A stretch of DNA of 64,000 nt from assembly GCA_951406725.2 (NCBI GenBank), contig OX597817.1:8494001-8558000 (forward strand). The letters are read 5' to 3'. The notes below the pieces were generated by a model, which made no database searches, was not told the DNA's origin, and was given only the letters and a program-made list of their open reading frames with translations. This DNA comes from Octopus vulgaris (Eukaryota). The translations under genes were made by a program, and so were the position numbers. Shown in pieces: positions 2,093-62,700 of this stretch (positions within the stretch are counted from its first letter, which is position 1; every line of letters starts with the position of its first letter).

Positions 2093-2704
2093 CCATAGCT
2101 TTACCATTCTCCGTGGTTACAAAACAACCAGAAATAAGTGCAGTAGGATTGTGAGAATTACGTTCTGACTGAGTCCAGAGGGCATGAATACAAGGGCGAA
2201 AAGGACAAAGCTGGACATTGTCCAACCGTCAAACTACGCCCCATACGATTTATCATTGCATGTCGGTGTTTACAATATAATTCGCAGCTAAATACAGATA
2301 TAGAATAAACTGGGAAAATAGATTTATGGTTCAAATTTCGTCGTTCAGCTAAATACCTGCGTGCTATTGGATTGCTCGATCGGGGCTGCCATGGAACTCA
2401 TAACAACAGCTACTTTCATTATATACTAAAGATTTAAATTTTGACCTCGCAGCTTTCGTCTATCTTAATGAGTGTTGCAGAACAAAGACTGGACTATTAA
2501 TCGACATAATGCGATCCTTATACAACTAATGCTCGGCTAAAAGATTTAGACATCACTCTATTGCCCAAGCCTTGAAATTAAGGCGTTCATGCTCCCAATA
2601 AGAGCAGAATTCGCTTCACTGCTTGAACTCCTCTTCTCTTCACATTTGTTACCAAAAATGTTACAAAGAGAATCAATCTTTTAACAACGCCTTTCTTTGG
2701 CTAA

Positions 2705-3091
2705 GTGGAGGCGCAATGGCCCAGTGGTTAGGGCAGCGGACTCGCAGTCGTAGGATCGCGGTTTCGATTCCCAGACCGGGCGTTGTGAGTGTTTATTGAG
2801 CGAAAACACCTAAAAGCTTCACGAGGCTTCTGCAGGGGGTGGTGGTGAACCCTGCTGTACTCTTTCACCACAACTTTCTCTCACTCTTACTTCCTGTTTC
2901 TGTTGTACCTGTATTTCAAAGGACCAGCCTTGTCACTCTCTGTGTCACGCTGAATCTCCTCGAGAACTACGTTAAGGGTACACGTGTCTGTGGAGTGCTC
3001 AGCCACTTACACGTTAATTCCACGAGCAAGCTGTTCCGTTGATCGTATCAGCTGGGACCCTCATCGTCGTAACCGACGGAGTGCTCCTATA
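2705..3091 (+). mobile_element. tRNA(Arg-like)-derived SINE, family B
   Basis: Head GGAGGCGCAATGGCCCAGTGGTTAGGGCAGCGGACTCG; 11-bp TSD TCTTTGGCTAA at 2694-2704 and 3092-3102. Confidence 0.93.
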
Positions 3092-3522
3092 TCTTTGGCT
3101 AAATTATATTTCAGGGCGTTACGCTTAATTGTTGCACACTGCATATACAAATTAACGAGTGTTTCATTAAAATTCATGTTTGAACCTTCAAGTATATAAG
3201 TAGTTCATGTACGAAAGAGGAAATGTTTTCACAGAATCAAGATGAAACGGAATTTTGAAGCTCCAGAAAGGTTAAGTACGCTGTAGAATATCTACTATTT
3301 CCTGAGTATCTCAACTAATTTGGCTTTCATTTGTCGCAACACAGATAAATGTGTTGATTTCCCAGTGCATGCAAAATCCATTGTTTCATATCTAAATGAA
3401 TAAACATCAACAATAGCAACAACAAGAGCAGTATTTAGTATCGTTAAAAAGTGAATTTTGACTGCTTCGTTTCGTTTGTTGATATTTTTGTTAGTGATAT
3501 GTTGGTCCACGTCAACCTTGAT

Positions 3523-3917
3523 ATGGATTGGATTGGAAGCACTCCGTCGGTTACGACGACGAGGGTTCCGGTTGATCCGAATCAACGGAACAGCCTGCTC
3601 GTGAAATTAACGTGTAAGTGGCTGAGCACTCCACAGACACGTGCACCCTTAACGTAGTTCTCGGGGATATTCAGCGTGACACAGAGAGTGACAAGGCCGG
3701 CCCCTTGAAATACAGGTACAACAGAAACAGGAAGTAAGAGTGAGAGAAAGTTGTGGTGAAAGAGTACAGCAGGGATCACCACCATCCCTGTCGGAGCCTC
3801 GTGGAGCTTTAGGTGTTTTCGCTCAATAAACACTCACAACGCCCGGTCTGGGAATCGAAACCGCGATCCTACGACCGCGAATCCGCTGCCCTAACCACTG
3901 GGCCATTGCGCCTCCAC
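3523..3917 (-). mobile_element. SINE family B
   Basis: Reverse-complement copy; 11-bp TSD TCAACCTTGAT at 3512-3522 and 3918-3928. Confidence 0.93.
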
Positions 3918-5104
3918 TCAACCTTGATCTAGTAGACCTATTGATCAAATATGTTCCAGCCGTGATCATCCAGTCTTTTCTGGGCATAGTATATCTAAGA
4001 AGTTTTCTTGCGCATATGTAGTTACTCTTTGACGACTAAGCTTCACTCGGCAGTGTACTACAAGTACAACTTGCTAATAATCGGTTTTACAGTAAAACAT
4101 ACATTGTGTACACACACACATACATACCCACACACACACGCACACACACAAACATACATATGTTACAAACACTTTAGATTTACAAAGTCAACTAGGAATA
4201 CGAATGATATTAAGATTATATGAAGATTATGTAGTCAATTAGGGTTAGTACTAACGAGATGCAGCTGTTGACGACCTTATTTTCTCTACTAATCTATTTT
4301 CGTAATCATTGTTTTGTCTAGCTCTGCGAAAATTCCGAAAAAGAACCACATGTTAAGAACTTTTGGAAAGTAGATATTCAGATAAATGCTCCACATATTA
4401 TGTTTTCATAAACAATCAAAATAATCAAGATTTCTTTAACAATCGGTTTTTAAATTTTGATACAACATTCTCTGGATGGACATTTACGACCGAACAGGTT
4501 AAACAAAAATGTTTCTCCTTGCCTAAGAACAAGATGAATTTTTTCATTAATTTCTTTTAAAGTAATGGATGTATTTGATGTATCTCACTTCTGATGTCTT
4601 CGTGTTTTTCTTTTTGCTCTTCATCAGAACAACATGTATTGATCAAGGAAAATTTAAAGGACGATACTGGCTCCAGTAAGATTTGAACTCCTCACTGTGA
4701 GGTACTAATTTAAGCAAATATTAAAAAGACATTTGAAAGTGAATTCTAGCGTTCGCAGTTAACTCTATAACGTTTCCTGGACCAATTCTCGATTATGTTA
4801 GATAACTAAAATGGTGACCATGAAGATAAAATGACGATGATGATGATGGCAGCTGCGACGACGACGACGATGATGATGATGATTGATGATGATAGCGTTT
4901 AGTCTCAAGTCAATTCGTGTAAGATCTGTTCCAGTTATGATCATCTCGTTTAGTAGTTCTAGAGTTATATGATCTAGATCTGTTTCTATACCAGAAGCTA
5001 GGACTTGAGCAAGGCTCAGCTGATATCATATAGACCTATCAACCATATACAGGCTCTTGTTTTCCTGTAACTGTGATGTTTGAGGCATAATTACAGCAGA
5101 GTTA

Positions 5105-5445
5105 AAGGTGGTAAGCAGGGAAAAACGTTAGCGAGCCAGACAAAATAATTAACGGCATTTCTTCTGCCTCTTAACGTTCTAGGTTCGAATTCCGCCGAGG
5201 TCGGCTTTGCTTTTCATCCTTTAGGGATCCGTAAAATAATTACCTGTCAAACACATCGATGTAATAAAATCATACCTATTTCTTTATTACCCACAAGGGG
5301 CTAAACATAGAGGGGACAAACATGGACATACATAGGTATTAAGTCGATTATATCGACCCCAGTGCGTAACTGGTACTGAATTTATCGACCCCGAAAGGAT
5401 GAAAGGCAAAGTCGACCTCGGCGGAATTTGAACTCACAACGTAAC
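5105..5445. mobile_element. Two SINE family C copies (older + copy ~5105-5260, younger - copy ~5275-5445)
   Basis: Central domain GTCGACTTTGCCTTTCATCCTTTCGGGGTCGATAAA (resembles the Meta/MESC SINE domain) present in both orientations. Confidence 0.8.
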
Positions 5446-13370: not shown

Positions 13371-13446
13371 CCTTTGGAAACCGGCTCCCTCCTCCGTGGA
13401 AGATTTATAATAATGAAACGTAGAAGAGACATATTCGTACATACAT

Positions 13447-13930
13447 ACAATCCAAGGACAGGAGATTGCTACTAAATACCTAATCAACAAAAGAATCAAT
13501 AAAGCTCTTGTAGTTCCAAGATGCAACTATAAATGTAGATTATGTCATATTTCTGTGGAAGACTTTACACATGTGATTAGCTGCTGTCATGTCACTACCT
13601 TCCTATGTGACACGACATTGTCGCAAATACAATGTACAATGCCATTCAGAAAAAGAAGAATGTCCTGGAATAGATAGAGAGAATCCATCTGTTTTTGAAT
13701 ACATACACAAATACTAGCATCAAGGAATACTGGTGGAACATTCCCTTCAAAACATCTGTCAAGAGTAAGCATAACAGGCCAGACATTGTTGTTTGGGACA
13801 GACAAGAAAAGGTACGAATCGCCATAGAGGTCAGGTGTCTTGCTGATGTGAATATCAATTTGAAAATCAAGAGACAGAAGATAACTATGGACAGCTGCTT
13901 CAGAACATCCAGTTTCTACATCGTAAGATT
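13447..13930 (+). mobile_element. R4/Dong-like non-LTR retrotransposon fragment (zinc knuckle plus restriction-like endonuclease)
   Basis: KCRLCHISVEDFTHVISCC (CCHC), HDIVA, and WWNIPFKTSVKSKHNRPDIVVWDRQEKVRIAIEV (PD..D..E RLE motif); frameshifts and stops. Confidence 0.88.
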
Positions 13931-13949
13931 GTGGCCTTGCTGTGGAACC

Positions 13950-14330
13950 GTTTGGTAGAATTTTTGGTCGAATGAATCGACCCCCAGTACTTACATTTTG
14001 TTAAGCTGGATACTTACCTATTCCATCGGTCACTTATGCCGAACTGTTAAGTTACGGGGGGCTTAAACATAACAACCCCTGTTGTCAAGCAGTACTAGGG
14101 GAAAAAGGAGCCAATCACACACACTCACACACATACACACACACACAAACACACACATATGCATATACGACAGGCTTCTTTCAATTTCCGTCTACCAAAT
14201 CCACTCACAAGGCTTTGGTCGGCCCGAGGCTATAGTAGAAGACACTTGCCCAACGTGCCACGCAGTGGGACTGAACCCGGAACCATGTGTTTGGTAAACA
14301 AGCTACTTACCACACAGCCACTCCTGCGCC
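13950..14330 (-). mobile_element. SINE family A
   Basis: Match to family A. Confidence 0.85.
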
Positions 14331-21647: not shown

Positions 21648-23649
21648 CACACATACACACACACTAACACACACACACGTGTATATGTGGGTGAGCCTAT
21701 GTGCGTATATATTACAGAAAGAATAATTAGGCCTCATTCATCAAGACATTGCAAGGCTTTAATAAACGCATATAATATTTGAATACATTTAACCAAACTA
21801 ACAAAGAAGACTCTACATAGTTCAGCTGTCTGCATGATCATAAGGAAAAAAACCCAAATCTCTCTCAGAAGTATATCATGCATAATGTGTATAAACCATA
21901 TCTAAATTTGAAACTTGTTGTTTTAACGATTTGTCAGGACTAGACGATCCTGAATGTATGCCAGTCCAATCAGGACTGACTTAGGGTTAAAAACAACAGC
22001 ACATAAGCACATAATAAATCAATATTCTGACATTTGGTGTTAGTTTCTGCTTCTTAATTTCTCATTCAGTATTTTAAAGAGAAGCCACGTCTGTCGTTGA
22101 AAGAAATTGTTGCTCATGTGTATGGCTTATTAATCAACGGAACACTGTTAAATATTGATTTCTTATGGCTTCTGCGCAAGATCAATATTGTGATCTGTTG
22201 TCCGTAAGATGATTTAAGCGCGTTTATAATACATTTTGTTTTTTAATGAAATCCTTCCCGAATAAATATTGGTTTAGAATATTTATTTTTAGTGTAATTC
22301 TTTATTTTTGTCTTAAACGATCTCATAACTCTTATTGGAGAAATGCATATCATCCCGCATCAAATGTTAATATACTCGTGCTTTAGGCGAAACGGTGTTG
22401 GAAACGTTTTAAATATTCTGGTTTCGGAATTCTAGTGACTAACTGGAAATTGTTGTTACAGATATCCAGCAGAGGAAGATGGCTGTTGTAAAAAGCAACA
22501 TCTACACATGCGTACATATTACTGTTCATAGTGAAGTTTTAGTATGCATAAAGCAGAGGAGATGAGCTATAAAAAGGTGAGAGATTTTTGTTTTAGAGAG
22601 GGATATATGTAGTTTCGGCGGTACAAGGAAGTGACTTGTAAAGTCCAGGTACAATTAAAGTTTAAGAATATTAAAGAAAAGGAAGAAGAAATGTACTGAC
22701 TGTTTCATGTTACTTTTTAAAGTCTATGGAAATTTTAGATGTCTGCGTTTTGAGGCCTCATTGATGTTAACCTCTGCAGAGAGCTTAACTAGAGTTTCTG
22801 AAGCAAAGTGAACTCTTCTAGAGGACCAGAAGAGATGGTATTGAACAAGGCAATATGACATAGTTTTCATCCCATCCTGTTTTCATATACCGAAGTCGCT
22901 GAATTACAATCAACAGCTAATGAAAGAATGCTTGTGTACATGTTTGTAATTTTCCATCTTCTACGTGTCTGGCTTATTCTCTGTGCATAATTTTTCTCTC
23001 TTTTTCTAATTTCTTTCTTTCCATCACACTCTTAAAAAACACACACACCCTCACACTCACACACATATGTGTATGCATGTCTGTATGTTTATATGCATAC
23101 ACACATCCATATACCCATACATACAAACACTCATTTGTACACATACCTACAGCAGAGTCTCACACATGTGATTAAGTGAGTTGAGAAACTTTGATTAAAG
23201 ACTTTCGATGAGAAACTTCAAATTAAAGTCAAAAGGTAATCTATCAGTACTCCGAATCCCAAAACAGGTGAGATAAATGTAATAACAGCAGTTAATCAAA
23301 GTGTTAATCCAATACATCTGGGTGTGTATCTTGTCTTTTAACTGAAGAGTATCTAAGAGAAGAGTTGGAGAATTAAGGGTAGCGTGTTAACAAAACAGAG
23401 CATATTAGTTTGTCATTGGTGTGAACGCGAATAAAATAAGTAGACTTCAGAAAAATCGCTTGCCCTCGGCTCTTATTTTTGTCCTCCTCACCCCAGTATC
23501 CTACTCTTCACTCAGCCCATATCATGATACAATTAGCAGTAGGCTGTGTAGTGTTATCTCAGAACATTTACTAGAAAAAGGAGAATGAGCTTTCCATTAT
23601 TAGCTATTAATTATATTATTGAGTGAAGTTAAAATTTATGATGAATTTA

Positions 23650-23935
23650 CCATCTCGGGTGGTGTACAGTCCTTACCCAATGTTCAGAATTTTATTTTCC
23701 ATGCAGACTCCGAAGAAGAGAGCAATTTCTATTATCTTTGTAGGCCACTCTGAAACCGGTGATTTGATGCCGTTAATGTTAGGTTTAAACTGTTGCAGAT
23801 CATCAGTAACAGGAAAACTATGTGTAAGGAAGATTATAGAGAACCGATGTTCTGTTAGAGAAGGAATGAGCATAGTGGTTAGCACAGAGCGGGAAGATTA
23901 AACACAACAAAAGTGACGATAGTTAGAGAGGGAAA

Positions 23936-24032
<97 letters not shown>

Positions 24033-25080
24033 GAGTGGACCGGGAGTGGGTACGAGATCAGTCAGTTCTGAGGAGCAAAGCATATTACAGCTTCGATAGG
24101 AAAGGTTGTAAGAAGAGAGAACACGCCTGTGGGCCAGAGGCTGGTGTGTGTCTAGGGAGTAAGTGCAAATTAGCCAAATGGCCCTTCTCTGGGTGCGATC
24201 GAAGATGCGTGTGCGCATAGCAGTAACGTTCTCCGTTAAAAAGGTAAAGGCTACCTTCTCGAGTCATACCGACTCATAAAGGCCGGTTTCCCAGTTTCAT
24301 GGCATAAATATTCCCCACCTGGACAAGCCGTCTGTCCGTCGCAGGATTACTCATTTTTGTCAGCTGAGTGCATAAAGCAACGTGAAATGAAGTGTTTTGC
24401 TCAAAGATACAACGCATCGCCCGGTCCAGGAATTGAAACCACAATCTTACGATTATGAATCCAATACCCTAACCACTAAGCCACGTGCCTCCACCTAATC
24501 TATTGTGGACTTTATTTGAAGCGTGTAGAGTGCCAGCGGCTGTTGAGGACTGAAATATTTCCTTGCCTTCAAGAGAAGGGGAAATTTTTGGCTTGCGGTC
24601 TTAGCTATGTTAAGCATATACTTTCGGTGATAGATTCTCGGTGACAGTGAGTCCCGACATTTGGAGCAACAGTAAAGAGTATAAGTGCTACTTAGACTAA
24701 TTCCTTACAGTTTAAAGTGGGTGTGATGCAGTGGTGTTTTCTCAATATCAGTAATGCTTGAATTTTTCTTGTGTTGAAAAGGTTGGCATGACCTCACTAG
24801 AAGACGCTCTGAAGGTCTCTGCCTATGAAATCAACGCAAAATTTCGCATGTGGTGTCTCGATTGCATGTACGTTTGGAGCTGGTCAGAGAGAAATAAAGA
24901 TTTGTTCTATCTGTATGAGAGTAACTGTTGGATGTGGCGGCAAATACGTCATTGCAGAATGGAGAGAGTAAGGAACAGAACGGAACCCGGTGGGACACCC
25001 AAAGTTGATTGAGAATGGGACGCAAAGAATTGAAAAGTTAACAAAGACCAGCGCAGGTAGAAGAGAGAATTTTAACTGCT
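23650..25080 (-). mobile_element. Decayed CR1/Jockey-group LINE ORF2 3' part
   Basis: RT remnants GVPPGSVL...NDVFAATSN (GVPQGS motif); C-terminal FDRTQRRAIWLI...QPLAHRRVLSS...CSSELTDLVP and FP..DLQQFKPNIN. Confidence 0.8.
24238..24494 (-). mobile_element. tRNA-derived SINE group D (V-domain-like) inserted in the CR1-like LINE
   Basis: Minus head GTGGAGGCACGTGGCTTAGTGGTTAGGG, TTGAGCAAAACACTT, CCTGCGACGGAC. Confidence 0.8.
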
Positions 25081-25647
25081 GTTTCTTTTTTTTTTTTTTT
25101 TTGTCATCGTTGCTACTGTCGTTATTGTTAGTGTTGTCGTTGCTGTGGTCTTCGATGATATGATTGCTGTAGTTGTTGTTGTTGGTGTTGTGACTGCAGT
25201 TACAGTCGTTAAGTGTTGACTTCTGTTGCTGTTTTTGTTGTTAGAGCTGTTAAGTGTGGGCTGTCATCGTTGACACTTAATACCATCTATGAATACCAAC
25301 TGCCCTACATTTTCTATTTAGCAGAGGATACTCAAATATGTATGTGTTCTGAATAGCAGAAGATACTGAAAGATGTCTGCAGAAGTCAACAATGACATTT
25401 ACACTCCTACCAGTACCTAATTGGGAAAAGATATTATATTTAACTCATCATTTTTTGTTTTGCAGATAATTACGACAGTAGTGGCTGCTTTGGCAGCCGA
25501 GAACTGAAAGATGAAGCATTTTATTTTTCTTATTTCTCACAATTCATTGTTTTCTATTCCACCTTCCAGATTCAATATATAACTTTCAATAGTATAGAGA
25601 ATTAGAAAATTGAGTTAATCATAAGAAATCAATGTTGAACAATGTTA

Positions 25648-26718
25648 CGAGGGTGGGCTGAAAAGTTCATAAGCTGACTAGGAAAGAGTGACGTTAGGGA
25701 TGTGAAATCCCGCGTGCATTAATTTCAAACTCCTCTTATTAATAACTGCATTGTTTCTTTCCATTTGACTGTTTAAAGAAGACTTGAAAAGTAACAAGTA
25801 GCAACTTCTTTTGAAAATCAACAAAATTTGGCATTGTGGTGTTATCAAGTACCTACAGAAAAAGGGTTTATTCCCCAAGGACATTTATGCTGACATGGTT
25901 GCTACATTAGGGGATGACGTTTCAGCTTTATTAACAGTGCAAAAGTGGGCAGCTGAAGTTCGGAGGGGAATAGGGATTCTTGAAGATGACCCAACATCTG
26001 GACGTCCTAACAACTGGCACCACCGAGGAAAACACGGATTGGGTTCACCACCTGAGGATGAAAGGCGATTGATTATACAAAAAATGACTGACACTATTAG
26101 TATATCCAGGGAGGGAGTTGAGAATATTCCGCACAGTGAACTTGGTACGATGAAGGCTTTTTCTCTGTGGGTGCCACTTCTTTTGACATCTGACGAAATG
26201 CACACCGGGCTGAGCATATCACGGGAAAATCTGATATTGTTTGAGGAAGATCCAACTGTTTTCTTAAACTTCCTAAGTCAGAATGAGTAGTGGAGGCGCA
26301 ATGGCCCAGTGGTTAGGGCAGCGGACTCGCGGTCGTAGGATCGCGGTTTCGATTCCCAGACCGGGCGTTGTGAGTGTTTATTGAGCGAAAACACCTAAAG
26401 CTCCACGAGGCTCCGGCAGGGGATGGTGGTGATCCCTGCTGTACTCTTTCACCACAACTTTCTCTCACTCTTACTTCCTGTTTCTGTTGTACCTGTATTT
26501 CAAAGGGCTAGCCTTGTCACTCTCTGTGTCACGCTGAATATCCCTGAGAACTACGTTAAGGGTTCACGTGTCTGTAGAGTGCTCAGCCACTTACACGTTA
26601 ATTTCACGAGCAGGCTGTTCCGTTGATTCGGATCAACCGGAACCCTCGTCGTCGTAACCGACGGAGTGGTTCCACAAATCAGAATGAGTATTGCATTCAT
26701 CACTTTGAGTTAGAGACA
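25648..26718 (+). mobile_element. Mariner transposon, 3'-truncated by the duplication breakpoint
   Basis: TA plus TIR CGAGGGTGGGCTGAAAAGTTCATA; ORF 25811-26290 HTH region (TVQKWAAEVRRG...EDDPTSGRP) and WVPLLLT motif. Confidence 0.9.
26290..26678 (+). mobile_element. SINE family B inserted in mariner
   Basis: 12-bp TSD TCAGAATGAGTA at 26278-26289 and 26679-26690. Confidence 0.93.
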
Positions 26719-26862: not shown

Positions 26863-28844
26863 CACACACACACGTGTATATGTGGGTGAGCCTATGTGCG
26901 TATATATTACAGAAAGAATAATTAGGCCTCATTCATCAAGACATTGCAAGGCTTTAATAAACGCATATAATATTTGAATACATTTAACCAAACTAACAAA
27001 GAAGACTCTACATAGTTCAGCTGTCTGCATGATCATAAGGAAAAAACCCAAATCTCTCTCAGAAGTATATCATGCATAATGTGTATAAACCATATCTAAA
27101 TTTGAAACTTGTTGTTTTAACGATTTGTCAGGACTAGACGATTCTGAATGTATGCCAGTCCAATCAGGACTGACTTAGGGTTAAAAACAACAGCACATAA
27201 GCACATAATAAATCAATATTCTGATATTTGGTGTTAGTTTCTGCTTCTTAATTTCTCATTCAGTATTTTAAAGAGAAGCCACGTCTGTCGTTGAAAGAAA
27301 TTGTTGCTCATGTGTATGGCTTATTAATCAACGGAACACTGTTAAATATTGATTTCTTATGGTTTCTGCGCAAGATCAATATTGTGATCTGTTGTCCGTA
27401 AGATGATTTAAGCGCGTTTATAATACATTTTGTTTTTTAATGAAATCCTTCCCGAATAAATATTGGTTTAGAATATTTATTTTTAGTGTAATTCTTATAT
27501 TTTTGTCTTAAACGATCTCATAACTCTTATTGGAGAAATGCATATCATCCCGCATCAAATGTTAATATACTCGTGCTTTAAGCGAAACGGTGTTGGAAAC
27601 GTTTTAAATATTCTGGTTTCGGAATTCTAGTGACTAACTGGAAATTGTTGTTACAGATATCCAGCAGAGGAAGATGACTGTTGTAAGAAGCAACATCTAC
27701 ACATGCGTACATATTACTGTTCATAGTGAAGTTTTAGTATACATAAAGCAGAGGAGATGAGCTATAAAAAGGTGAGAGATTTTTGTTTTAGAGAGGAATA
27801 TATGTAGTTTCGGCGATACAAGGAAGTGACTTGTAAAGTCCAGGTGGAATGAAAGTTTAAGAATATTAAAGAAAAGGAAGAAGAAATGTACTGACTGTTT
27901 CATGTTACTTTTTAAAGTCTATGGAAATTTTAGATGTCTGCGTTTTGAGGCCACATTGATGTTAACCTCTGCAGAGAGCTTAACTAGAGTTTCTGAAGCA
28001 AAGTGAACTCTTCTAGAGGACCAGAAGAGATGGTATTGAACAAGGCAATATGACATAGTTTTCATCCCATCCTGTTTTCATATACCGAAGTCGCTGAATT
28101 ACAATCAACAGCTAATGAAAGAATGCTTGTGTACATGTTTGTAATTTTCCATCTTCTACGTGTCTGGCTTATTCTCTGTGCATAATTTTTCTCTCTTTTT
28201 CTAATTTCTTTCTTTCCATCACACTCTTAAAAAACACACACACCCTCACACTCACACACATATGTGTATGCATGTCTGTATGTTTATATGCATACACACA
28301 TCCATATACCCATACATACAAACACTCATATGTACACATACCTACAGCAGAGTCTCACACATGTGATTAAATGAGTTGAGAAACTTCGATTAAAGACTTT
28401 CGATGGGAAGCTTCAAATTAAAGTCGAAAGGTAATCTATCGGTACTCCGAATCCCAAAACAGGTGAGATAAATGTAATAACAGCAGTTAATCAAAGTGTT
28501 AATCCAATACATCTGGGTGTGTATCTTGTCTTTTAACTGAAGAGTATCTAAGAGAAGAGTTGGAGAATTAAGGGTAGCGTGTTAACAAAACAGAGCGTAT
28601 TAGTTTGTCATTGGTGTGAACGCGAATAAAATAAGTAGACTTCAGAAAAATCGCTTGCCCTCGGCTCTTATTTTTGTCCTCCTCACCCCAGTATCCTACT
28701 CTTCACTCAGCCCATATCATGATACAATTAGCAGTAGGCTGTGTAGTGTTATCTCAGAACATTTACTAGAAAAAGGAGAATGAGCTTTCCATTATTAGCT
28801 ATTAATTATATTATTGAGTGAAGTTAAAATTTATGATGAATTTA

Positions 28845-29132
28845 CCATCTCGGGTGGTGTACAGTCCTTACCCAATGTTCAGAATTTTATTTTCCATGCA
28901 GACTCCGAAGAAGAGAGCAATTTCTATTATCTTTGTAGGCCACTCTGAAACCGGTGATTTGATGCCGTTAATGTTAGGTTTAAACTGTTGCAGATCATCA
29001 GTAACAGGAAAGCTATGTGTAAGGAAGATTATAGAGAACCGATGTTCTGTTAGAGAAGGAATGAGCATAGTGGTTAGCACAGAGCGGGAAGATTAAACAC
29101 AACAAAAGTGACGATAGTTAGAGAGGGAAAAT

Positions 29133-29225
<93 letters not shown>

Positions 29226-30275
29226 GAGTGGACCGGGAGTGGGTACGAGATCAGTCAGTTCTGAGGAGCAAAGCATATTACAGCTTCGATAGGAAAGGTT
29301 GTAAGAAGAGAGAACACGCCTGTGGGCCAGAGGCTGGTGTGTGTCTAGGGAGTAAGTGCAAATTAGCCAAATGGCCCTTCTCTGGGTGCGATCGAAGATG
29401 CGTGTGCGCATAGCAGTAACGTTCTCCGTTAAAAAGGTAAAGGCTACCTTCTCGAGTCATACCGAGTTATAAAGGCCGGTTTCCCAGTTTCATGGCATAA
29501 ATATTCCCCACCTGGACAAGCCGTCTGTCCGTCGCAGGATTACTCATTTTTGTCAGCTGAGTGCATAAAGCAACGTGAAATGAAGTGTTTTGCTCAAAGA
29601 TACAACGCATCGCCCGGTCCAGGAATTGAAACCACAATCTTACGATTATGAATCCAATACCCTAACCACTAAGCCACGTGCCTCCACCTAATCTATTGTG
29701 GACTTTATTTGAAGCGTGTAGAGTGCCAGCGGCTGTTGAGGACTGAAATATTTCCTTGCCTTCAAGAGAAGGGGAAATTTTTGGCTTGCGGTCTTAGCTA
29801 TGTTAAGCATATACTTTCGGTGATAGATTCTCGGTGACAGTGAGTCCCGGCATTTGGAACAACAGTAAGGAGTATAAGTGCTACTTAGACTAATTCCTTA
29901 CAGTTTAAAGTGGGTGTGATGCAGTGGTGTTTTCTCAATATCGGTAATGCTTGAATTTTTCTTGTGTTGAAAAGGTTGGCATGACCTCACTAGAAGACGC
30001 TCTGAAGGTCTCTGCCTATGAAATCAACGCAAAATTTCGCATGTGGTGTCTCGATTGCATGTACGTTTGGAGCTGGTCAGAGAGAAATAAAGATTTGTTC
30101 TATCTGTATGAGAGTAACTGTTGGATGTGGCGGCAAATACGTCATTGCAGAATGGAGAGAGTAAGGAACAGAACGGAACCCGGTGGGACACCCAAAGTTG
30201 ATTGAGAATGGGACGCAAAGAATTGAAAAGTTAACAAAGACCAGCGCAGGGAGAAGAGAGAATTTTAACTGCTGT
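28845..30275 (-). mobile_element. Duplicate of the CR1-like LINE with nested group D SINE (29431-29687)
   Basis: Near-identical to 23650-25080. Confidence 0.8.
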
Positions 30276-31495
30276 TTCTTTCTTTTTTTTTTTTTTGTCA
30301 TCGTTGCTACTGTCGTTATTGTTAGTGTTGCCGTTGCTGTGGTCTTCGATGATCTGATTGCTGTTGTTGTTGTTCATGTATCAGAACTGCTATCGTCGTC
30401 GTCGTTGTTGTTGTTGGTGTTGTGACTGCAGTTATAGTCGTTAAGTGTTGACTTCTGTTGCTGTTTTTGTTGTTAGAGCTGTTAAGTGTGGGCTGTCATC
30501 GTTGACACTTAATACCATCTATGAATACCAACTGCCCTACATTTTCTATTTAGCAGAGGATACTCAAATATGTATGTGTTCTGAATAGCAGAAGATACTG
30601 AAAGATGTCTGCAGAAGTCAACAATGACATTTACACTCCTACCAGTACCTAATTGGGAAAAGATATTAAATTTAACTCATAATTTTTTTTTTGCAGATAA
30701 TTACGACAGTAATGGCTGCTTCGGCAGCCGAGAACTGAAGGATGAAGTATTTTATTTGTCTCATTTCTCACAAATTCAGTGTTTTCTATCCCACCTTCCA
30801 GATTCAATATATAACTTTCAATAGTATAGAGAATTAGAAAATTGAGTTAATCATAAGAAATCAATGTTGAACAATGTTACGAGGGTGGGCTGAAAAGTTC
30901 ATAAGCTGACTAGGAAAGAGTGACGTTAGGGATGTGAAATCCTGCGTGCATTAATTTCAAACTCCTCTTATTAATAACTGCATTGTTTCTTTCCATTTGA
31001 CTGTTTAAAGAAGACTTGAAAAGTAACAAGTAGCAACTTCTTTTGAAAATCAACAAAATTTGGCATTGTGGTGTTATCAAGTACCTACAGAAAAAGGGTT
31101 TATTCCCCAAGGACATTTATGCTGACATGGTTGCTACATTAGGGGATGACGTTTCAGCTTTATTAACAGTGCAAAAGTGGGCAGCTGAAGTTCGGAGGGG
31201 AATAGGGATTCTTGAAGATGACCCTACATCTGGACGTCCTAACAACTGGCACCACCGAGGAAAACACTGATTGGGTTCACCACATGAGGATGAAAGGCGA
31301 TTGATTATACAAAAAATGACTGACACTATTAGTAGATCTAGTGAGGGAGTTGAGAATATTCCGCACAGTGAACTTGGTACGATGAAGGCTTTTTCTCTGT
31401 GGGTGCCACTTCTTTTGACATCTGACGAAATGCACACCGGGCTGAGAATATCACGGGAAAATCTGATATTGTTTGGGGAAGATCCAACTGTTTTC

Positions 31496-31602
31496 AGTCA
31501 TTTGAGATAATAGTTACTTTCCTCGTTGCTTGCATTCTTGCAATTTCGTCTTTTAGTAGTCTGTATTTCTCCATCTTTTCTAGCACTTTGTCATCTACAC
31601 GG
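31496..31602 (-). mobile_element. 107-bp R4-like RLE-domain fragment
   Basis: Minus translation RVDDKVLEKMEKYRLLKDEIARMQATRKVTII fits the K..KY..L segment of RLE endonucleases; absent from duplicate unit 1. Confidence 0.65.
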
Positions 31603-39228: not shown

Positions 39229-39627
39229 TATGCTGCCATATAGAATGACTGCGTGGCTGTATTACAAAAGATAGACTCTCGTGTTTCCCATGTTTACTAT
39301 TTTCTATATTTAAATTGTGTAGATAAAAACCACATATTGAGGTTTAAATAATTTACGTAAGGTTCTGAGTAAACACTAGAAATTTACGTAAGATTTTAAG
39401 TAAACACGAAAATTTTGTGCGCTTTATGAATGACAAATATCATACAAAAACATTTGATTGCACAAGAATCAACTTGAGGATAGATAAGTAAAATAAATAA
39501 GCATTGAAATTCACAATAAAAAAGGTAAAGAAGAATAGAGATAAAAATAGAGAGAAGAAAAAGAAAATATCGGCGACCTGCATTTTAGGAAAAGGCAACT
39601 TGCATTTCACAACGACAATGTAAGTTA

Positions 39628-39882
39628 ATATTGTTATATTTCGGAATGGTCATATTGCCAGTTTAGCCAATAAAAACACACGCACTATATATTTGGTGTT
39701 ATTTTGCTTCAGTGATATTTATTTTTTACACATTAATCACTGAAGCAAAATAACACCAAATATATAGTGCTTGCGTTTTTATTGGCTAAACTGGCAATAT
39801 GACCATTCCGAAATATAACAATATCTGTTTCAACACACGACTTCACATAAAAAATCTTGCACAACAAATATTTAAACGTACT
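39628..39882. mobile_element. Asymmetric fold-back element 1 (89-bp inverted arms plus 58-nt tail)
   Basis: Arms 39628-39716 and 39736-39824 (2 mismatches); flanking direct repeat AATGTAAGTTAA at 39617-39628 and 39883-39894. Confidence 0.85.
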
Positions 39883-40726
39883 AATGTAAGTTAAATATTC
39901 GTTAAATCGTAGACGTTACTGAATTTCACTACAAAATATAAATAAAATTTTGCCCAGCATTATCTGCTTTTTCAGGTGTTTCTATCAAGATATACAAAGA
40001 CTTGATCGAAGCAGTAAGCTTACATGTGAAAGAAAAAAAATTATATTAAAGAGAAAGATTACAAGATCGCTGCGTGTTACTATGGAACTGGATAAAAGGA
40101 CTAATATTTCAAATACAATTTAATGCTCTACAGTTGTAGATTATATTGGACTGCGTGAAATTAAAGAAAGCTTCGGAAAATTTCACAAACATGAGCACAG
40201 AACTACTTGTGTAACAAAATGCATATTTATAGATTTAAACAAATATACTTGTGCTCAGGCACTTGTAGCACAGATGTATAACGTCGTGTCGATGACACTG
40301 TGTAACACGATTTTGTCCTTGGGTAGGAAGTGTTATTTCCTATTTGCTTACCTCTAGAAAGTATGAAAAATGGTTAATATTTCCTTCAAACTTTGCTTTT
40401 GTTACATTTATTCTAACCCCACAAAATCAACTAGTTTCTGGTGTTGAATTATATTCTTAGATAATATATTTAACCTTTACAAGTTTTGTGTATCTTATAA
40501 AAGGTTTCGAAGAATCTCAACGATCTAAAAGTAATCAGCAATTAATAATATATTCTAGCAAAATTCACAATGCCTTATATCACTGAGATTAGAATTTGAC
40601 TGTTATTATATTTCGTCGATTCTGAAAGGATTAAGACAAAGTTTATCTTGGCAAGATTTGAACTCAGAACGAAAGGGGTCGGAAGCAGTAATTTGTTCCA
40701 CACTTTAACAATTTTGTTAATCAACC

Positions 40727-41135
40727 GGCGCAGGAGTGGCTGTGTGGTAAGTAGCTTGCTAACCAACCACATGGTTCCGGGTTCAGTCCCACTGCGTGGC
40801 ATCTTGGGCAAGTGTCTTCTGCTATAGCCCCGGGTCGACCAATGCCTTGTGAGTGGATTTGGTAGACGGAAACTGAAAGAAGCCTGTCGTATATATGTAT
40901 ATATATATGCGTGTGTGTGTTTGTGCGTCTGTGTTTGACCCCCTAGCATCGCTTGACAACCGATGCTGGTGTGTTTACGTCCCCGTCACTTAGCGGTTCG
41001 GCAAAAAAGAGACCGATAGAATAAGTACTGGGCTTACAAAGAATAAGTCCCGGGGTCGAGTTGCTCGATTAAAGGCGGTGCTCCAGCATGGCCGCAGTCA
41101 AATGACTGAAACAAGTAAAAGAGAAAAGAGAAAGA
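40727..41135 (+). mobile_element. SINE family A
   Basis: Full-length match. Confidence 0.93.
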
Positions 41136-41177
41136 GAGAACCGTTCTTAAATAATTGACTGATATTGATACAAGGTA

Positions 41178-41960
41178 AGGCGGCAATCTAACAGAATTTT
41201 TTTGTTCGCCAGGTAAAATCTTCAGCGGCATTTCGTCCGTCTTTATATTCTGAGTTGAAATTCCGCTGAGATTCATTTTTCCACTCATCCTTTCGGGGTC
41301 GACTAAATAAGTATCACTTGAGCGTGGGGATTGAAGTCATCGACTTACCCGCTCCCCGGAAATTGATGTTGGTACATTTGGGAGAGAGCGAGTTTTTAAT
41401 TATATTGGCATCAATAACTAATTGATGCTTACATTTTATTCTGACCCCCAAAGGGACAAAATGTAAAGTTAGCAATAATAATTCTTTTATAATTTTGCAA
41501 AGGGTTAGCAGTTTGCTAATGTTGGTGTGGGGTGGTTTAGTCGATTACATCGGCCCCAGTGCTCAGAAAGAATGAAAGGCAAAGTCGACCTCGGTGAAAT
41601 TTGATCTCAGAAGCCAGAAGAAATGCCGCCAATCATTTTTGGGAGGTGAGGGGAAACATTTCAAGTCGTTAACGAATTTTTTCAGACTGGTGAGATTGAT
41701 GAAGCTGATGTCCACCCTGGGTGTCTTTAGACCAGTGTTTGTAGGGGGGGGGGGAAGATAATAATAATCCTTTTTAATTTGGGCACAAAGCCAACAGTTC
41801 TGAGGGGAGGAAAATGGTCAATTATATCGACCGCAATCCTTGACTGGTACTTTATTTTATCGACCCCGAGTGGATGAAGAGCAAAGTTGATCATGACAAG
41901 ATTTGAACGGAGAACGTAAAGAGCCGGAAGAAATATCGCTAAGCATTTTGTCCAGCGCAC
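41178..41960. mobile_element. Cluster of three old SINE family C copies (+, -, -)
   Basis: Central domain matches at ~41285, ~41570 and ~41860. Confidence 0.7.
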
Positions 41961-42249
41961 AGCCAGTGGGTCGCAGTTCTGGGGAAGAAGGATTAGAAGG
42001 AAAGTTTATTGCAGATATTGGGAAGTGAAATACATTAAGGGTTACAAGTAGAGGAAAGATAATAGGAATAACTATACGTGGGTGGGAAGAATACATAGGT
42101 AGCTGCAGGAGAGGCCATTACTGTGGTGATAAAACAGATCAGAGATTCTCAAACAGAGAGTCATCTGTAAAGTATTTTTAAAACATAAATCCATATTAAT
42201 GCTTGAGTATCTTGAGAAAGCTGTTTATTCATAATTTTGTTATACTCAT

Positions 42250-42663
42250 TTACTCTTTACTCTTTTACTTGTTTCAGTCATTTGACTGCAGCCATGCTGG
42301 AGCACCGCCTTTAGTCGAGCAACTCGACCCCGGGACTTATTCTTTTTGTAAGCCCAGTACTTATTCTATCGGTCTCTTTTTGCCTAACCGCTAGATGACG
42401 GGTACGTAAACACACCAGCATCAGTTGTCAAGCAATGCTAGGGGAACAAAGACAGACACACAAACACACACACATACATACATATATATATATATATATA
42501 CATATATACGACAGGCTTCTTTTCAGTTTCCGTCTACCAAATCCACTCACAAGACATTGGTCGGCCCGAGGCTATAGCAGAAGACACTTGCCCAAGATGC
42601 CACGCAGTGGGACTGAACCCGGAACCATGTGGTTGGTAGACAAGCTACTTACCACACAGCCAC
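42250..42663 (-). mobile_element. SINE family A
   Basis: Near-full-length match. Confidence 0.92.
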
Positions 42664-43205
42664 ATGATTAATGAAACAAAATATACGACAGTTTTTAAAA
42701 ATTATTTTTACACTTAAACAGATTTTTTCCACCCTTTACATTTAGTTGGTGTAGAGAAAAGTTAATGCACTTGGCCTTTGCTGGATCTCATAGACCAGTA
42801 AAAGTTGTTGCCGCTCATGTGAATGGCAACATTCGAACCTTTGTGAGTGAAGTTGTTACGAATGGGAGGTTGGTCACAACAAAGTGATGGGGATGATGAG
42901 AGAAGAGACGAGCGGGATAGAAGTGCTTGAGTGGAGGTGGTACCAGACCAACAAGTTCCAGCGACCTCAACAGCAACAAGTTGTTTACATTACTGAGTTT
43001 GACGCTTACTGTCATCTGACCTGTTATCGAAAACTACGCCGTGATCTAAGATTAGCCCCTGGCAACGGACTTCTGTGAAAAGAAACAAACTTAAAGCTAT
43101 AACGTATAAAGTGTTTAAGTAGAGCTTATATGAAGAGACACTTGAAAATATAATAAAGTCACTTATTGAAATAGATATTTAATACGTATTCCATATTCTA
43201 ATAGT

Positions 43206-43866
43206 ACATTGTGTTTCTAGCCGATAGACGCCTAGTCATCACGTAATGGCTTCGTCAGGACTGCGAAGAGAAATATCAGATTGTAGCACGTAAGCCAGCG
43301 GCCAAAATATCCGGGAAACAAATACGAATATTTTGTTGTGTCTGGGGAGAGTCATTTTCTTTCAGTGCCTTACGATTATTAAAAAAAGTTGTAAGACGCA
43401 ACGAAAATTTTAGAAAAAATAAATAACTAAATGAGGGGAAACTGAACCGGTGAGTGTGTTAAATAATAAGGTATTAAAAGAGAATGACTCTCACCAGACA
43501 CAGCAAAATGTGCTTCAAGACACGAACTCACATAAAGAATCTTGTAAACCAAATCCATAAGTGAAATAAAATACGAATATGTTTATTATAAATATGCGAA
43601 CACTTTTGTCAAGTATTCCGTATGTTTGCAACGGGTAAAAGTGCTCGAATGGAATTTTCAATTAACTTATAGAAAACAGCAGTTATATCAAAAATATCAA
43701 TAAAATTAAGCCACGTAATAAAATTTATGAGTAAGATATTTTATTTTTCTGCATACGTTGCATTACTGCAAGCAAGAAATACTTATGATTCTCCTTGCAG
43801 TTCGCCATCAATTACGTCATGTGACCAGTAGCATCTGTGGTCATCTGATTACCAGAAACACAATGT
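43206..43866. mobile_element. Old TIR element (MITE-like) hosting fold-back element 2
   Basis: Perfect 13-bp IR ACATTGTGTTTCT / AGAAACACAATGT, with further imperfect inward matches. Confidence 0.5.
43330..43568. mobile_element. Asymmetric fold-back element 2 (~45-bp inverted arms plus 59-nt tail)
   Basis: Arms ~43330-43373 and ~43466-43509; flanking direct repeat AAATACGAATAT at 43320-43331 and 43569-43580; tail homologous to that of element 1. Confidence 0.82.
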
Positions 43867-46031: not shown

Positions 46032-46240
46032 TACTCTTTTACTCTTTTACTTGTTTCAGTCATTTGACTGCGGCCATGCTGGACCACCGCCTTTAGTCGA
46101 GCAACTCGACCTCGGGACTTATTCTTTGTAAGCCCAGTACTTATACTATCGGCCTCTTTTTGCCGAACCACTAAGTGACGGGGACATAAACACACCAGCA
46201 TCGGTTGTCAAGCAATGCTAGGGGGACAAACACAGACACA

Positions 46241-46280
<40 letters not shown>

Positions 46281-46425
46281 TATATACGACAGGCTTCTTT
46301 CAGTTTCCGTCTACCAAATTCACTCACAAGGCATTGGTCGGCCCGGGGCTATAGCAGAAGACACTTGCCCAAGATGCCACGCAGTGAGACTGAACCCGGA
46401 ACCATGTGGTTGATTAGCAAGCTAC
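46032..46425 (-). mobile_element. SINE family A (head truncated)
   Basis: Match to family A. Confidence 0.9.
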
Positions 46426-46567
46426 CAGATAGAATGCTTTTGATCATTGACCTGCTCGATGAGGGATGATTGGGGCTAAATAGCAACAACAACAACTGAG
46501 TGTATATAAACGCTCGTATGTTTCCAAACTAGACCAATTCATTGAACGCAGGAACAATTATGTCTTT

Positions 46568-46838
46568 AATCTTTTATCTTTTACTGGTTTCAGTCATTGG
46601 ACGGCAGCCATGCTGGGGTACCGCCGTGAAGAATTTTTAGTCGAATGAATTGACATTACCACTTTTGTTTTAAGCGTGGTATTTATTCTATCGGTATCTT
46701 TTGCTGAACTGGTAAGTGATGGGAACGTAAGCACACCAACACCGGCTATCAAGTGGTGATGGTAGAGGACAAACACAGACACAAAGATACACACATACCC
46801 ACGCATATACACACACACACACATACACACATACATAT

Positions 46839-46869
<31 letters not shown>

Positions 46870-47020
46870 GCGCAGGAGTGGCTGTGTAGTAAGTAGCTTG
46901 CTTACCAACAGGGCTCAGTCCTACTGAGTGACGCCTTGGGCAAGTGTCTTCTATAGCCTTGAGCCGACGAAAGCCTTGTGAGTGGATTTGGTCTACGGAA
47001 ACTGAAAGAAGCTCGTCGTA

Positions 47021-47103
<83 letters not shown>

Positions 47104-47321
47104 TTGTGTGTGTGTATTTGTCACCCCAACATCGCTTGGCAACCGATGGTGGTGTGTTTACGTCCCCGTAACTTAGCAGTTCGGCAAAAGAGACCGATAG
47201 AATAATTACTAGGCTTACAAAGAATAAATCCTGGGATCGATTTGCTCGACTAAAGGCGGTGCTCCAGCATGTCCGCAGTCAAATAACTGAAACAAGTAAA
47301 AGAGTAAAAGAGTAAAGAGTA

Positions 47322-47377
<56 letters not shown>

Positions 47378-47516
47378 ACGGGCTTCTTTCAGTTTCCGAT
47401 TTCCGGTTTCACTCGCAAGACTTTGATCGGCCCGTGGCTACAGTAGAAGACACATGCCCAATATGTCACACGCTGGGACACATGTGGTTGGAAAATAAGC
47501 TTCTTACCACACAGCA
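46568..47516 (-). mobile_element. Old minus-strand SINE A split by a younger plus-strand SINE A (46870-47320)
   Basis: Tail half 46568-46800 and head half 47376-47516 flank the inner copy, which sits in the host's TA tract. Confidence 0.8.
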
Positions 47517-61637: not shown

Positions 61638-62700
61638 TAGATGAAAACAGTGAGTGCTCCATTTCTCGTCCGGCTACAATCATCAGCTGAGTGCCGTGCT
61701 TTGACAAGATTTCGGCCCATTAAACTCAGTATCACTCCACACGGTGGGCCCAAACCCTAACACCAACACTCATGACAGTTCTGTGGTCTTATACGCATTC
61801 ACAAACCTCCTGGTAATCCAAGAACTACCCTCAACTGCTTTCTCCCCACATTCCTTCATTGTACCTCACAGCATATACACCAGCCACATTCAGAAACCTC
61901 CTGAGAGAAGCTGTTGGGAAACTCCTACAGCCAACCTCGAACTCAGCCAGCTCACAGATTTAACTCTTCTCTCGAATCTCAGCTACCATCTCTTCATAGC
62001 CTAACAGCTTCCGCTCATGGGCCTCAGCAATGCTCTCCTCCCATGACACAGTAAGCTTCTCAAGGACCACACGTCTCTGACCCCCATCTAACAACACCAG
62101 GTCGGGCTGGAGTGCTGAAACAACGATGCTTTCAGGTAATGGCTTGTCCACGAACACCTCCCATTTTCTGACTTCGGGCTACTGAGGTCTCTGTCTTTTT
62201 GGCATCACACCATGCTTCACAAATGCTGTCTTGCGCAAGCTCAGCTCAGGCACTTGACCCTCTCTTGCAGCTGAAGCAACAACGTTTAGCACTAAATTAT
62301 GGTTAAATGTATACCATCCAGACTGGAGTGCTTTTGGGCAAGCTAACGGCCTGTGTTTGAGATTGCCATTCTTCCCACACATGTGGCACTGTGGACTCTC
62401 TTGGATACCCCATTTTTTTGAGATTTGCTGGAGACGGATGCACAGCATACGCAGTCTGGATTTGAGCTTTCAAATGCCTTGCACTCAAACCGCCATCAAT
62501 CAGACCACTTCAACTCCAGCTTTTCGACATCATCCCAATTCAGCCACCGACCCTGCTGTGCTTGTTGTGCTGCGTGACCCAGACGCCTCTCATCTTCCAG
62601 CTGCCTTACTTGTAGCTTCCGCTGTTCTTGTTCACTTGACTCAGGCCAGAACTGCAGACCAGTTGACTCAGACCAGGCCATAGCGGTCCTGGGAGCAACC
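61635..62700 (-). mobile_element. HERO/NeSL-like RLE non-LTR retrotransposon 3' fragment
   Basis: QQAQQGRWLNWD, PSPANLKKWG..PQCHMCGKNGNLKH..ACPKALQSGWYTFNHNLVL, LQPDLVL..KLTVSWEESIAEAHERK, FEVGCRSF; frameshifted; bounded by (TA)n and (TATG)n. Confidence 0.88.

What the first reader, a model, noticed from the sequence alone, without database searches (positions are those of the whole stretch)
39617..43580. Two diverged asymmetric hairpin-plus-tail mobile elements with a conserved ~58-nt tail and 12-bp TSDs
Seen: element 1 (39628-39882) and element 2 (43330-43568) share one architecture: TSD, left arm starting at the terminus, spacer, inverted right arm, 58-59 nt tail, TSD. The tails align without gaps at 36/45 nt (CTGTTTCAACACACGACTTCACATAAAAAATCTTGCACAACAAAT vs GTGCTTCAAGACACGAACTCACATAAAGAATCTTGTAAACCAAAT). 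The outer arm ends are related (ATATTGTTATATTTCGGAATGGTCAT vs ATTTTGTTGTGTCTGGGGAGAGTCAT), while the interiors and arm lengths differ. Established: ordinary MITEs have terminal TIRs and short fixed TSDs, and Helentrons lack TSDs. Penelope-like retroelements can form inverted repeats that lack a short terminal tail. Inference: a non-autonomous or ultra-truncated retroelement class in which an RT recognises the conserved tail and folds back at a fixed position, so each insertion seeds a long hairpin (potential ADAR/Dicer substrate).
Basis: partly seen in the sequence, partly recalled or inferred. Interest (0 to 1): 0.8.

Follow-up and report, generated by a model that had tools for sequence, protein, structure and literature searches.

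The report
Truncated Penelope-like retroelement hairpin insertions
The two hairpin-plus-tail repeats are real insertions, each flanked by a 12-base duplication of its landing site, and are likely the shortest leftovers of a Penelope-like jumping gene in an octopus genome, a pattern already described for that class, although the enzyme-coding parent copy was not found.

Summary
In detail: both elements, arms, tails and 12-bp duplications are at the stated places. One of four sequencing runs holds the empty site of element 1, with the 12-mer once, and thousands of contigs cover the element. New here: the shared part is the start of a reading frame. An ATG sits 26 nt inside the arm end in both elements, similarity begins there, and 4 of 5 family variants are silent. 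Seven database peptides match it and diverge after about codon 28; one is labelled Octopus bimaculoides. Head-to-head inverted copies, ORF start in the repeat, a one-sided tail, a TSD and (TA)n targets are the published Penelope-like (PLE) insertion signature. The turn is not fixed, and element 1 fits two cDNAs primed from opposite nicks better than a fold-back. Against: no RT/GIY-YIG parent was found, no hammerhead core, and the tail (58-61 nt) exceeds the published 30-40 nt. Earlier notes of this scan report the same pattern on other DNA. Verdict: likely a new member of a known kind, not a new class.

The parts
39617..39628 (+). Element 1, left copy of the 12-bp target-site duplication (last base shared with the arm)
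   Evidence: present once in the empty allele of run X1
39628..39738 (-). Element 1, inverted tail-less copy, running from +26 to about -85 relative to the ATG; includes the 19-nt 'spacer'
   Evidence: arm; other copies align through the spacer and leave at 39730 in 4 of 4 runs (43, 32, 27, 2 contigs)
39736..39882 (+). Element 1, direct tail-bearing copy, -63 to +84; shares 3 nt (39736-39738) with the inverted copy at the turn
   Evidence: the overlap is inferred from the loose ends
39799..39882 (+). Element 1, first 28 codons of the element's presumed ORF, open from ATG to the end of the tail
39825..39882 (+). Element 1, one-sided tail (58 nt; +27 to +84)
39883..39894 (+). Element 1, right copy of the 12-bp target-site duplication
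43320..43331 (+). Element 2, left copy of the 12-bp duplication (last 2 bases shared with the arm)
   Evidence: no empty site examined
43330..43377 (-). Element 2, inverted tail-less copy, +26 to about -22
43378..43461 (+). Element 2, 84-nt spacer; possibly further upstream sequence of the direct copy (assignment inconclusive)
   Evidence: colinear but not significant likeness to element 1's upstream part: 216 of 2000 shuffles as good in sense, 1233 of 2000 in antisense
43462..43568 (+). Element 2, direct tail-bearing copy, -22 to +85
43484..43564 (+). Element 2, ORF start, 26 codons then a stop at codon 27; 14 of 26 residues identical to element 1
43510..43568 (+). Element 2, one-sided tail (59 nt)
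43569..43580 (+). Element 2, right copy of the 12-bp duplication

Best explanation
Both elements are TSD-flanked insertions of one high-copy repeat family, and are likely severely 5'-truncated Penelope-like retroelement copies, in which two short cDNAs, predicted to start at two fixed sites inside the start of the element's ORF (+84/85 and about +26), would have been joined head to head. Inferred steps: the element's RT/GIY-YIG protein binds its RNA near the ORF start and nicks both strands of an AT-rich target 12 nt apart; each nick primes reverse transcription, one at the outer start site (giving the tail) and one at the inner site; both cDNAs stop within about 100 nt upstream of the ATG and join, in element 1 through a 3-nt overlap; fill-in makes the TSD. 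The hairpin is a by-product of two overlapping copies; arm and spacer length vary with where each cDNA stopped. Shown: geometry, TSD and empty site of element 1, high copy number, frame starting at the ATG. Inferred: the enzyme, the RNA intermediate, the order of steps.
For: Empty-site allele with one 12-mer. 6955, 5786, 3960 and 235 records laid on the 1001-nt stretch in the four runs, with the depth concentrated on the element. ATG 26 nt before the arm end and 84/85 nt before the tail end in both elements. Ungapped identity anchored on the ATG: 6 of 30 and 10 of 30 upstream, 16 of 26 and 36 of 45 downstream. Loose ends pile up just before the ATG in 4 of 4 runs (80, 97, 69, 6 contigs). 4 of the 5 listed family variants in +1..+84 are silent third positions in this frame (P 0.023; at most 2 of 5 in the other five frames). 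Six of 10 profile hits among 1.84 billion proteins and one UniRef protein match residues 1-26 or nearly, and what follows residue 28 is unrelated in all 21 pairs (local scores 1-24). (TA)n follows the tail end at 39880 in 3 of 4 runs (27, 21, 3 contigs), the target preference listed for octopus PLEs. Literature: pLTR holds the first 12 codons and the tail extends it to 22, with 8-10 bp TSDs and head-to-head inverted copies (PMC3846280); a lizard PLE protein cuts and extends both strands, and its tail is the stretch between two RT start sites inside the ORF (PMC11167929). In element 1 the extra upstream bases belong to the tail-less copy, so one cDNA folding back on itself cannot supply both them and the tail (inference).
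Against: No protein or contig links this N-terminus to an RT or GIY-YIG domain (collection scans gave nothing relevant). No exact hammerhead core in either element and no HHR match in Rfam. Tail is 58-61 nt, against 30-40 nt in print. The codon test between the two elements alone is weak (P 0.14 over 26 codons; 0.03 and 0.07 over codons 10-26), and one antisense frame scores as well (15 of 25 identical, though with 2 stops). The 5 variants come from a thresholded table, and the peptide hits were selected by protein likeness. The only long database protein with this N-terminus (P0014) continues into a YqaJ-type protein, not an RT. The spacer of element 2 could not be assigned. No empty site was examined for element 2.
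Confidence: 0.8

Rival explanations
1. A non-autonomous PLE-derived mini-element that is itself copied as a hairpin-plus-tail unit, or is made by fold-back of a single cDNA, possibly with no surviving parent.
For: Very many copies and no parent found; non-autonomous PLE derivatives and self-priming have been proposed.
Against: The turn differs between the two elements; other copies leave element 1 at the turn and continue with other upstream sequence; the extra upstream bases of element 1 lie in the tail-less copy, which a single fold-back does not give. None of the 31 records listed bridges the turn of element 1, but 17,027 pieces were not shown and hairpins assemble badly, so this is weak.
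Confidence: 0.1
2. A DNA transposon derivative with asymmetric inverted repeats (Mutator/Foldback-like, or tied to a YqaJ-nuclease element), cut and pasted as a unit.
For: Long inverted arms and a TSD of equal length (12) in both elements; one O. bimaculoides gene model joins this peptide to a YqaJ-type protein.
Against: The right end is not part of the inverted repeat; likeness between the two elements starts at an ATG and follows a reading frame; the YqaJ match begins at residue 31 of P0014 and has an 11-residue gap, as in a chimeric gene model; 6 of the 7 database peptides continue otherwise.
Confidence: 0.06
3. 3' remnants of another kind of non-LTR retrotransposon with a twin-priming inversion.
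For: TSD of 12 bp and a junction overlap are also typical of LINE twin priming (recalled, no call).
Against: LINE twin priming gives non-overlapping inverted parts and a 3' UTR or poly(A) end (recalled); here the two parts are copies of the same stretch, and the outer end is an ORF start with no poly(A).
Confidence: 0.04

Closest known systems
Insertion unit of EN+ Penelope-like elements: inverted 5'-truncated copy, one-sided tail (Craig et al. 2021, PMC8557442; passages and supplement rows seen)
   Same: Inverted truncated copy next to a direct copy, tail on one side only, (TA)n targets listed for octopus Naiad and Hydra families; Naiads lack canonical hammerheads, as does the part kept here.
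   Different: Tail 58-61 nt against 30-40 nt; here both copies are cut down to 50-190 nt; the octopus Naiad and Hydra-1 proteins shown in the supplement begin with other sequences and two 5-residue words of this peptide were not found there (long sequences are cut in that view).
Adineta vaga Penelope elements, Pen2/Pen2a (Arkhipova et al. 2013, PMC3846280; passages and Discussion seen)
   Same: pLTR includes the first codons of the ORF and the tail extends them; head-to-head inverted pLTRs; TSD of 8-10 bp.
   Different: There 12 codons plus a 31-bp tail (22 codons); here about 9 codons plus 58-61 nt (28 codons) and a 12-bp TSD; no ORF body here.
Poseidon of Anolis carolinensis, PAc (Frangieh et al. 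2024, PMC11167929; parts 1-2 of 4 of the text read)
   Same: Two fixed ends inside the ORF start bounding a tail; AT-rich target; both target strands cut and extended in vitro, which would give this geometry.
   Different: PAc's outer start lies 111-118 nt into the ORF with a 30-40 nt tail and a hammerhead at the ORF start; here the ends are +26 and +84/85 and no hammerhead core is seen.
Short opposite-strand pairs of truncated PLE ends in Schistosoma (Cervera and de la Pena 2014, PMC4209133; passages seen)
   Same: Short inverted pairs 100-700 bp apart read as truncated PLEs.
   Different: Those were found by their hammerheads; these carry none in the part kept.

Membership tests
Penelope-like elements (EN+) | Single ORF with telomerase-like RT and GIY-YIG endonuclease | tested here: inconclusive
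   Only 26-28 N-terminal codons are present; no parent found or in prokaryotic, viral and metagenome contigs (44, 45, 51, 57, 74); no host genome is held.
Penelope-like elements (EN+) | Terminal repeat ends inside the start of the ORF | tested here: met
   ATG at the same offset in both elements, likeness starts there, 4 of 5 variants silent; support is moderate, not strong.
Penelope-like elements (EN+) | Inverted 5'-truncated copy, head to head | tested here: met
   Both ATG-bearing ends point outwards; inner ends differ between copies.
Penelope-like elements (EN+) | Tail on one side only | tested here: met
   58-61 nt on the right only in both elements; tail-less ends at +26 followed by other flanks in further contigs.
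Penelope-like elements (EN+) | Usual tail length 30-40 nt (typical, not defining) | tested here: not met
   58-61 nt here against 30-40 nt.
Penelope-like elements (EN+) | Target-site duplication at an AT-rich or (TA)n target | tested here: met
   12-bp TSDs, empty site, (TA)n after the tail end in 3 of 4 runs.
Penelope/Poseidon, Neptune, Nematis, Hydra clades | Hammerhead ribozyme in the pLTR | tested here: not met
   No exact core on either strand of either element, only one-mismatch hits; no Rfam HHR match. Only about -100..+85 is kept, so one further upstream is not excluded. No clade is claimed.
Naiad clade | N-terminal GIY-YIG domain with CxC linker | not testable with these tools
   The ORF body is absent; the octopus Naiad proteins seen start differently.
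MITE / TIR DNA transposon | Inverted repeats at both termini | tested here: not met
   The right arm ends 58-61 nt before the right TSD in both elements.
Helitron2/Helentron-type non-autonomous elements | No TSD; short asymmetric inverted repeats with terminal hairpins | tested here: not met
   12-bp TSD shown by the empty site; definition from PMC8969392.

The most novel reading that the evidence does not exclude
An uncatalogued, very abundant octopus retroelement lineage without a hammerhead, whose two reverse-transcription start sites are about 60 nt apart (well above the published 30-40) and which survives almost only as self-folding mini-insertions, either as a non-autonomous unit or from a parent that is not a known PLE clade; its still-polymorphic copies would be a large source of perfect dsRNA in the animal group with the highest RNA editing, and would let twin priming be told from fold-back across thousands of junctions.
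Probability: 0.15. Interest if true: 0.5.

Novelty: new member of a known kind. Interest (0 to 1): 0.22.

Why it matters
Modest. It is a clean natural example of the two-start-site PLE mechanism shown in vitro for one lizard element, with an empty allele and a junction that favours priming from both nicks. Such mini-insertions are easily mislabelled as MITEs, miRNA precursors (Rfam gives sub-threshold miRNA hits) or gene exons (P0014). If transcribed, young copies are near-perfect 89-bp duplexes in a lineage reported to have exceptional hyper-editing and dsRNA content (PMC5625713), but that was not tested, and inverted SINE pairs nearby offer longer duplexes.

Tried and rejected
No host genome is held, so no genome-wide list of copies was made. 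No third copy in the window by BLAST or six-frame profile. Pfam scan of the 150 longest of 243 non-repetitive ORFs of the window: no PLE RT or GIY-YIG hit; only sub-cutoff hits. Pfam on the peptide alignment: one weak CENP-B_N hit in 1 of 8 members, rejected. Four of the 10 profile hits (P0002, P0003, P0004, P0010) are repetitive proteins matching only 7-8 residues and were left out of all counts. DNA pattern scans of metagenome and viral contigs: 0 matches. Protein scans of GTDB, metagenome and viral contigs gave L001-L004: 12-14 residue matches of 15-18 bits, one on the back strand of a phage gene, or a match to the YqaJ part of P0014 only; all rejected as chance or off the question. ESM Atlas: top score 0.80 for the peptide, uninformative; P0014 groups with unnamed eukaryotic clusters. 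Rfam: miRNA-type hits below gathering score, explained by the hairpin. A hammerhead cutting at +26, suggested by the same number in PAc, was considered and rejected: the GAAA and short stem of element 1 have no matching core upstream and are absent from element 2. Likeness of the upstream parts of the two elements is not significant. No RNA holder listed; run X14 is only guessed to be RNA, so nothing is claimed on expression; editing was not tested. Summed depth over the element is about 30,000-40,000 times the flank in X1 and X3, but the tool states that this is no copy number. Literature searches for a hairpin-plus-tail class apart from PLEs found none; Repbase, Dfam and subscription papers could not be searched. 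Supplements: those of PMC11167929 gave no text hits and its sequence file cannot be read here; that of PMC13282606 was listed, not read; a catalogued consensus there or in Repbase/Dfam may already cover this family.
Full report
1. Observation. Element 1 has 89-nt arms (87 of 89 complementary) at 39628-39716 and 39736-39824, a 58-nt tail and exact 12-nt direct repeats at 39617-39628 and 39883-39894. Element 2 has 48-nt arms (40 of 48) at 43330-43377 and 43462-43509, a 59-nt tail and 12-nt repeats at 43320-43331 and 43569-43580. The tails agree at 36 of 45 nt, E 5e-8 within the window, and the window holds no third copy. The hairpins fold far better than shuffles (z -24.2 and -6.5). The direct repeats overlap the left arms by 1 and 2 nt, so the tail is 58-61 nt.

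2. Element 1 is an insertion of a high-copy family. No genome is held for this window, so I laid contigs of four public runs, of 24 listed, on 39300-40300. Run X1 has an 843-nt contig that goes from 39616 to 39883, skipping 266 nt, with 12 letters fitting both sides: the empty site with the 12-mer once. X3 and X4 have contigs that run from the left flank to 39654 and from 39856-39858 into the right flank; these carry only about 25-27 element-specific letters, under the tool's 31-letter bar, so 'filled' is likely but not firm. 6955, 5786, 3960 and 235 records were laid, with the depth concentrated on the element. Element 2 was not covered by this single call. An empty site could also arise by deletion between the two 12-mers; either way the 12-mer is the target.

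3. The shared part is the start of a reading frame. In both elements an ATG lies 26 nt before the end of the right arm and 84 or 85 nt before the end of the tail, and the frames give 14 of 26 identical residues; element 2 has a stop at codon 27. Anchored on this ATG, ungapped identity is 6 of 30 and 10 of 30 upstream, 16 of 26 and 36 of 45 downstream, 6 of 13 at the very end. In the runs, family members part from element 1 just before the ATG in 4 of 4 runs (80, 97, 69 and 6 contigs). Of the five family-level variants listed within +1..+84, four are silent third positions in this frame (P 0.023), against at most two in the other five frames. Against this, the two-element codon test alone is weak (P 0.14; 0.03-0.07 for codons 10-26) and one antisense frame scores equally, with two stops. 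A profile of the two peptides found 10 proteins among 1.84 billion; six short ones from Logan contigs match residues 1-26 or nearly, four repetitive ones were dropped. A wider profile added a UniRef protein labelled Octopus bimaculoides, P0014, with 22 of 26 residues identical to element 1; the host is therefore likely an octopus (inference). In these seven, five have Met at or within two residues of position 1's place or at it (P0005, P0006, P0007, P0009, P0014 at position 1; P0008 begins at position 3; P0011 has Ile), and the sequences after residue 28 are unrelated in all 21 pairs: each copy stops at about codon 28 and runs into a different flank.

4. Anatomy in the element's own coordinates (ATG = +1). 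Element 1 is an inverted copy from +26 to about -85 followed by a direct copy from -63 to +84. The 19-nt 'spacer' belongs to the inverted copy, because other family members align from the left arm through it and leave at 39730 (43, 32, 27 and 2 contigs); the two copies then share three bases at the turn (39736-39738; inference from those loose ends). Element 2 is an inverted copy from +26 to about -22 and a direct copy to +85; its 84-nt spacer looks colinear with element 1's upstream part in the sense direction, but not significantly (216 of 2000 shuffles). So the outer ends are fixed and the turn is not. Further contigs end at +26 with other flanks, and (TA)n follows position 39880 in 3 of 4 runs.

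5. Mechanism. Most likely (0.8): a Penelope-like protein nicks both strands of an AT-rich target 12 nt apart and primes two cDNAs on its own RNA at two internal sites, +84/85 and about +26; both stop early and are joined head to head. This follows the in vitro behaviour of the lizard element PAc, which cuts and extends both strands, starts reverse transcription inside the ORF start, and whose tail is the stretch between two start sites (PMC11167929, parts 1-2 of 4 read). Element 1 tells the models apart: a cDNA begun at the tail reaches only -63 and cannot template -64..-85 by folding back, and a cDNA begun at +26 cannot template the tail, so two cDNAs are needed (inference, one element). Geometry, TSD, empty site and abundance are shown; enzyme, RNA stage and order of steps are inferred. 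Rivals: a unit-copied or fold-back mini-element (0.1), a DNA transposon derivative (0.06), another LINE (0.04).

6. What is missing. I could not link the peptide to an RT or GIY-YIG domain: three word-based protein searches, one full profile search, two atlas searches and five collection scans gave no parent. These collections hold little animal repeat sequence, so this is weak evidence. P0014 continues into a YqaJ-type protein, but the match starts at residue 31 and has an 11-residue gap, which fits a chimeric gene model; the partner P0015 is itself a fragment, so this is not settled. No hammerhead core is present in what is kept.

7. Comparison with what is known. PLE insertions are described as highly 5'-truncated, often with an inverted truncated copy and a 30-40 bp tail at one end; Naiads lack canonical hammerheads (PMC8557442, passages), and the octopus Naiad and Hydra families listed there prefer (TA)n (supplement rows). 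In Adineta the pLTR holds the first 12 codons, the tail extends them to 22, TSDs are 8-10 bp and inverted copies are mostly head to head (PMC3846280, passages and Discussion). Short opposite-strand pairs of truncated PLE ends are noted in PMC4209133 (passages). O. vulgaris has 31 recently active Penelope-like families (PMC13282606, passages), and Penelope is among the expanded coleoid repeats (PMC8967140, passages). PMC8969392 (passages) gave the definitions of PLEs and Helitrons; PMC5753468 (passages) added nothing. It works like a PLE insertion; membership rests on structure, with the enzyme untested; no clade is claimed. The differences are the longer tail and the missing hammerhead. Three earlier notes of this scan on other DNA reach the same reading for hammerhead-bearing elements; I had recorded my reading before seeing them and did not check them, so they are not counted as support.

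8. Novelty and value. Not a new class. Likely an uncatalogued or unrecognised octopus PLE family seen in its shortest form; I could not search Repbase or Dfam. The dsRNA idea has precedent (Penelope is heavily edited in lizard, and octopus is rich in long duplexes; PMC5625713, passages) but was not tested, and the inverted SINE pair between the two elements offers about 400 bp of duplex. Interest 0.22.

Noticed in passing
window 40736-41138 and 42245-42663: Two copies of a roughly 400-nt SINE-like repeat with an internal TA/CA microsatellite lie in inverted orientation 1.1 kb apart, 87-100% complementary by segment; similar inverted pairs at 2704-3918 and 46032-47515. A larger potential dsRNA source than the two hairpins. 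The SINE label is recalled, not from a call.
   Followed up: no
window about 22000-26300 and 27200-31500: A near-identical duplication with about 5.19 kb spacing (same ORFs at 23623 and 28818; paired BLAST hits at 22032/27224 and 24446/29639): a tandem duplication or an assembly artefact.
   Followed up: no
P0014 (UniRef A0A0L8I3J7, O. bimaculoides): A 136-aa gene model whose first 26 residues are this element's ORF start and whose residues 31-136 match a YqaJ-domain protein at 83%: probably a chimeric model, or an insertion into another mobile element.
   Followed up: partly
window 39300-40300, runs X1, X3, X4: X3 and X4 share many flank differences from the window yet appear to carry element 1, while X1, nearly identical to the window on the left flank, has the empty site: an old polymorphism or a precise deletion between the 12-mers.
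   Followed up: partly
window 13417-13955, 62182-62469, 25802-26287, 31034-31267: Decayed coding fragments with weak Pfam hits below cutoff (HSDR_N_2, zf-RVT, mariner HTH_48), likely remnants of restriction-like-endonuclease LINEs and a mariner transposase.
   Followed up: no
window 39350-39411: A 31-nt head-to-tail duplication, 84% alike, about 200 nt left of element 1.
   Followed up: no
window 5174-5442: An imperfect palindrome (67%) made of two inverted copies of a second short repeat that also occurs around 40637 and 41882 by eye; no tail or peptide match.
   Followed up: partly
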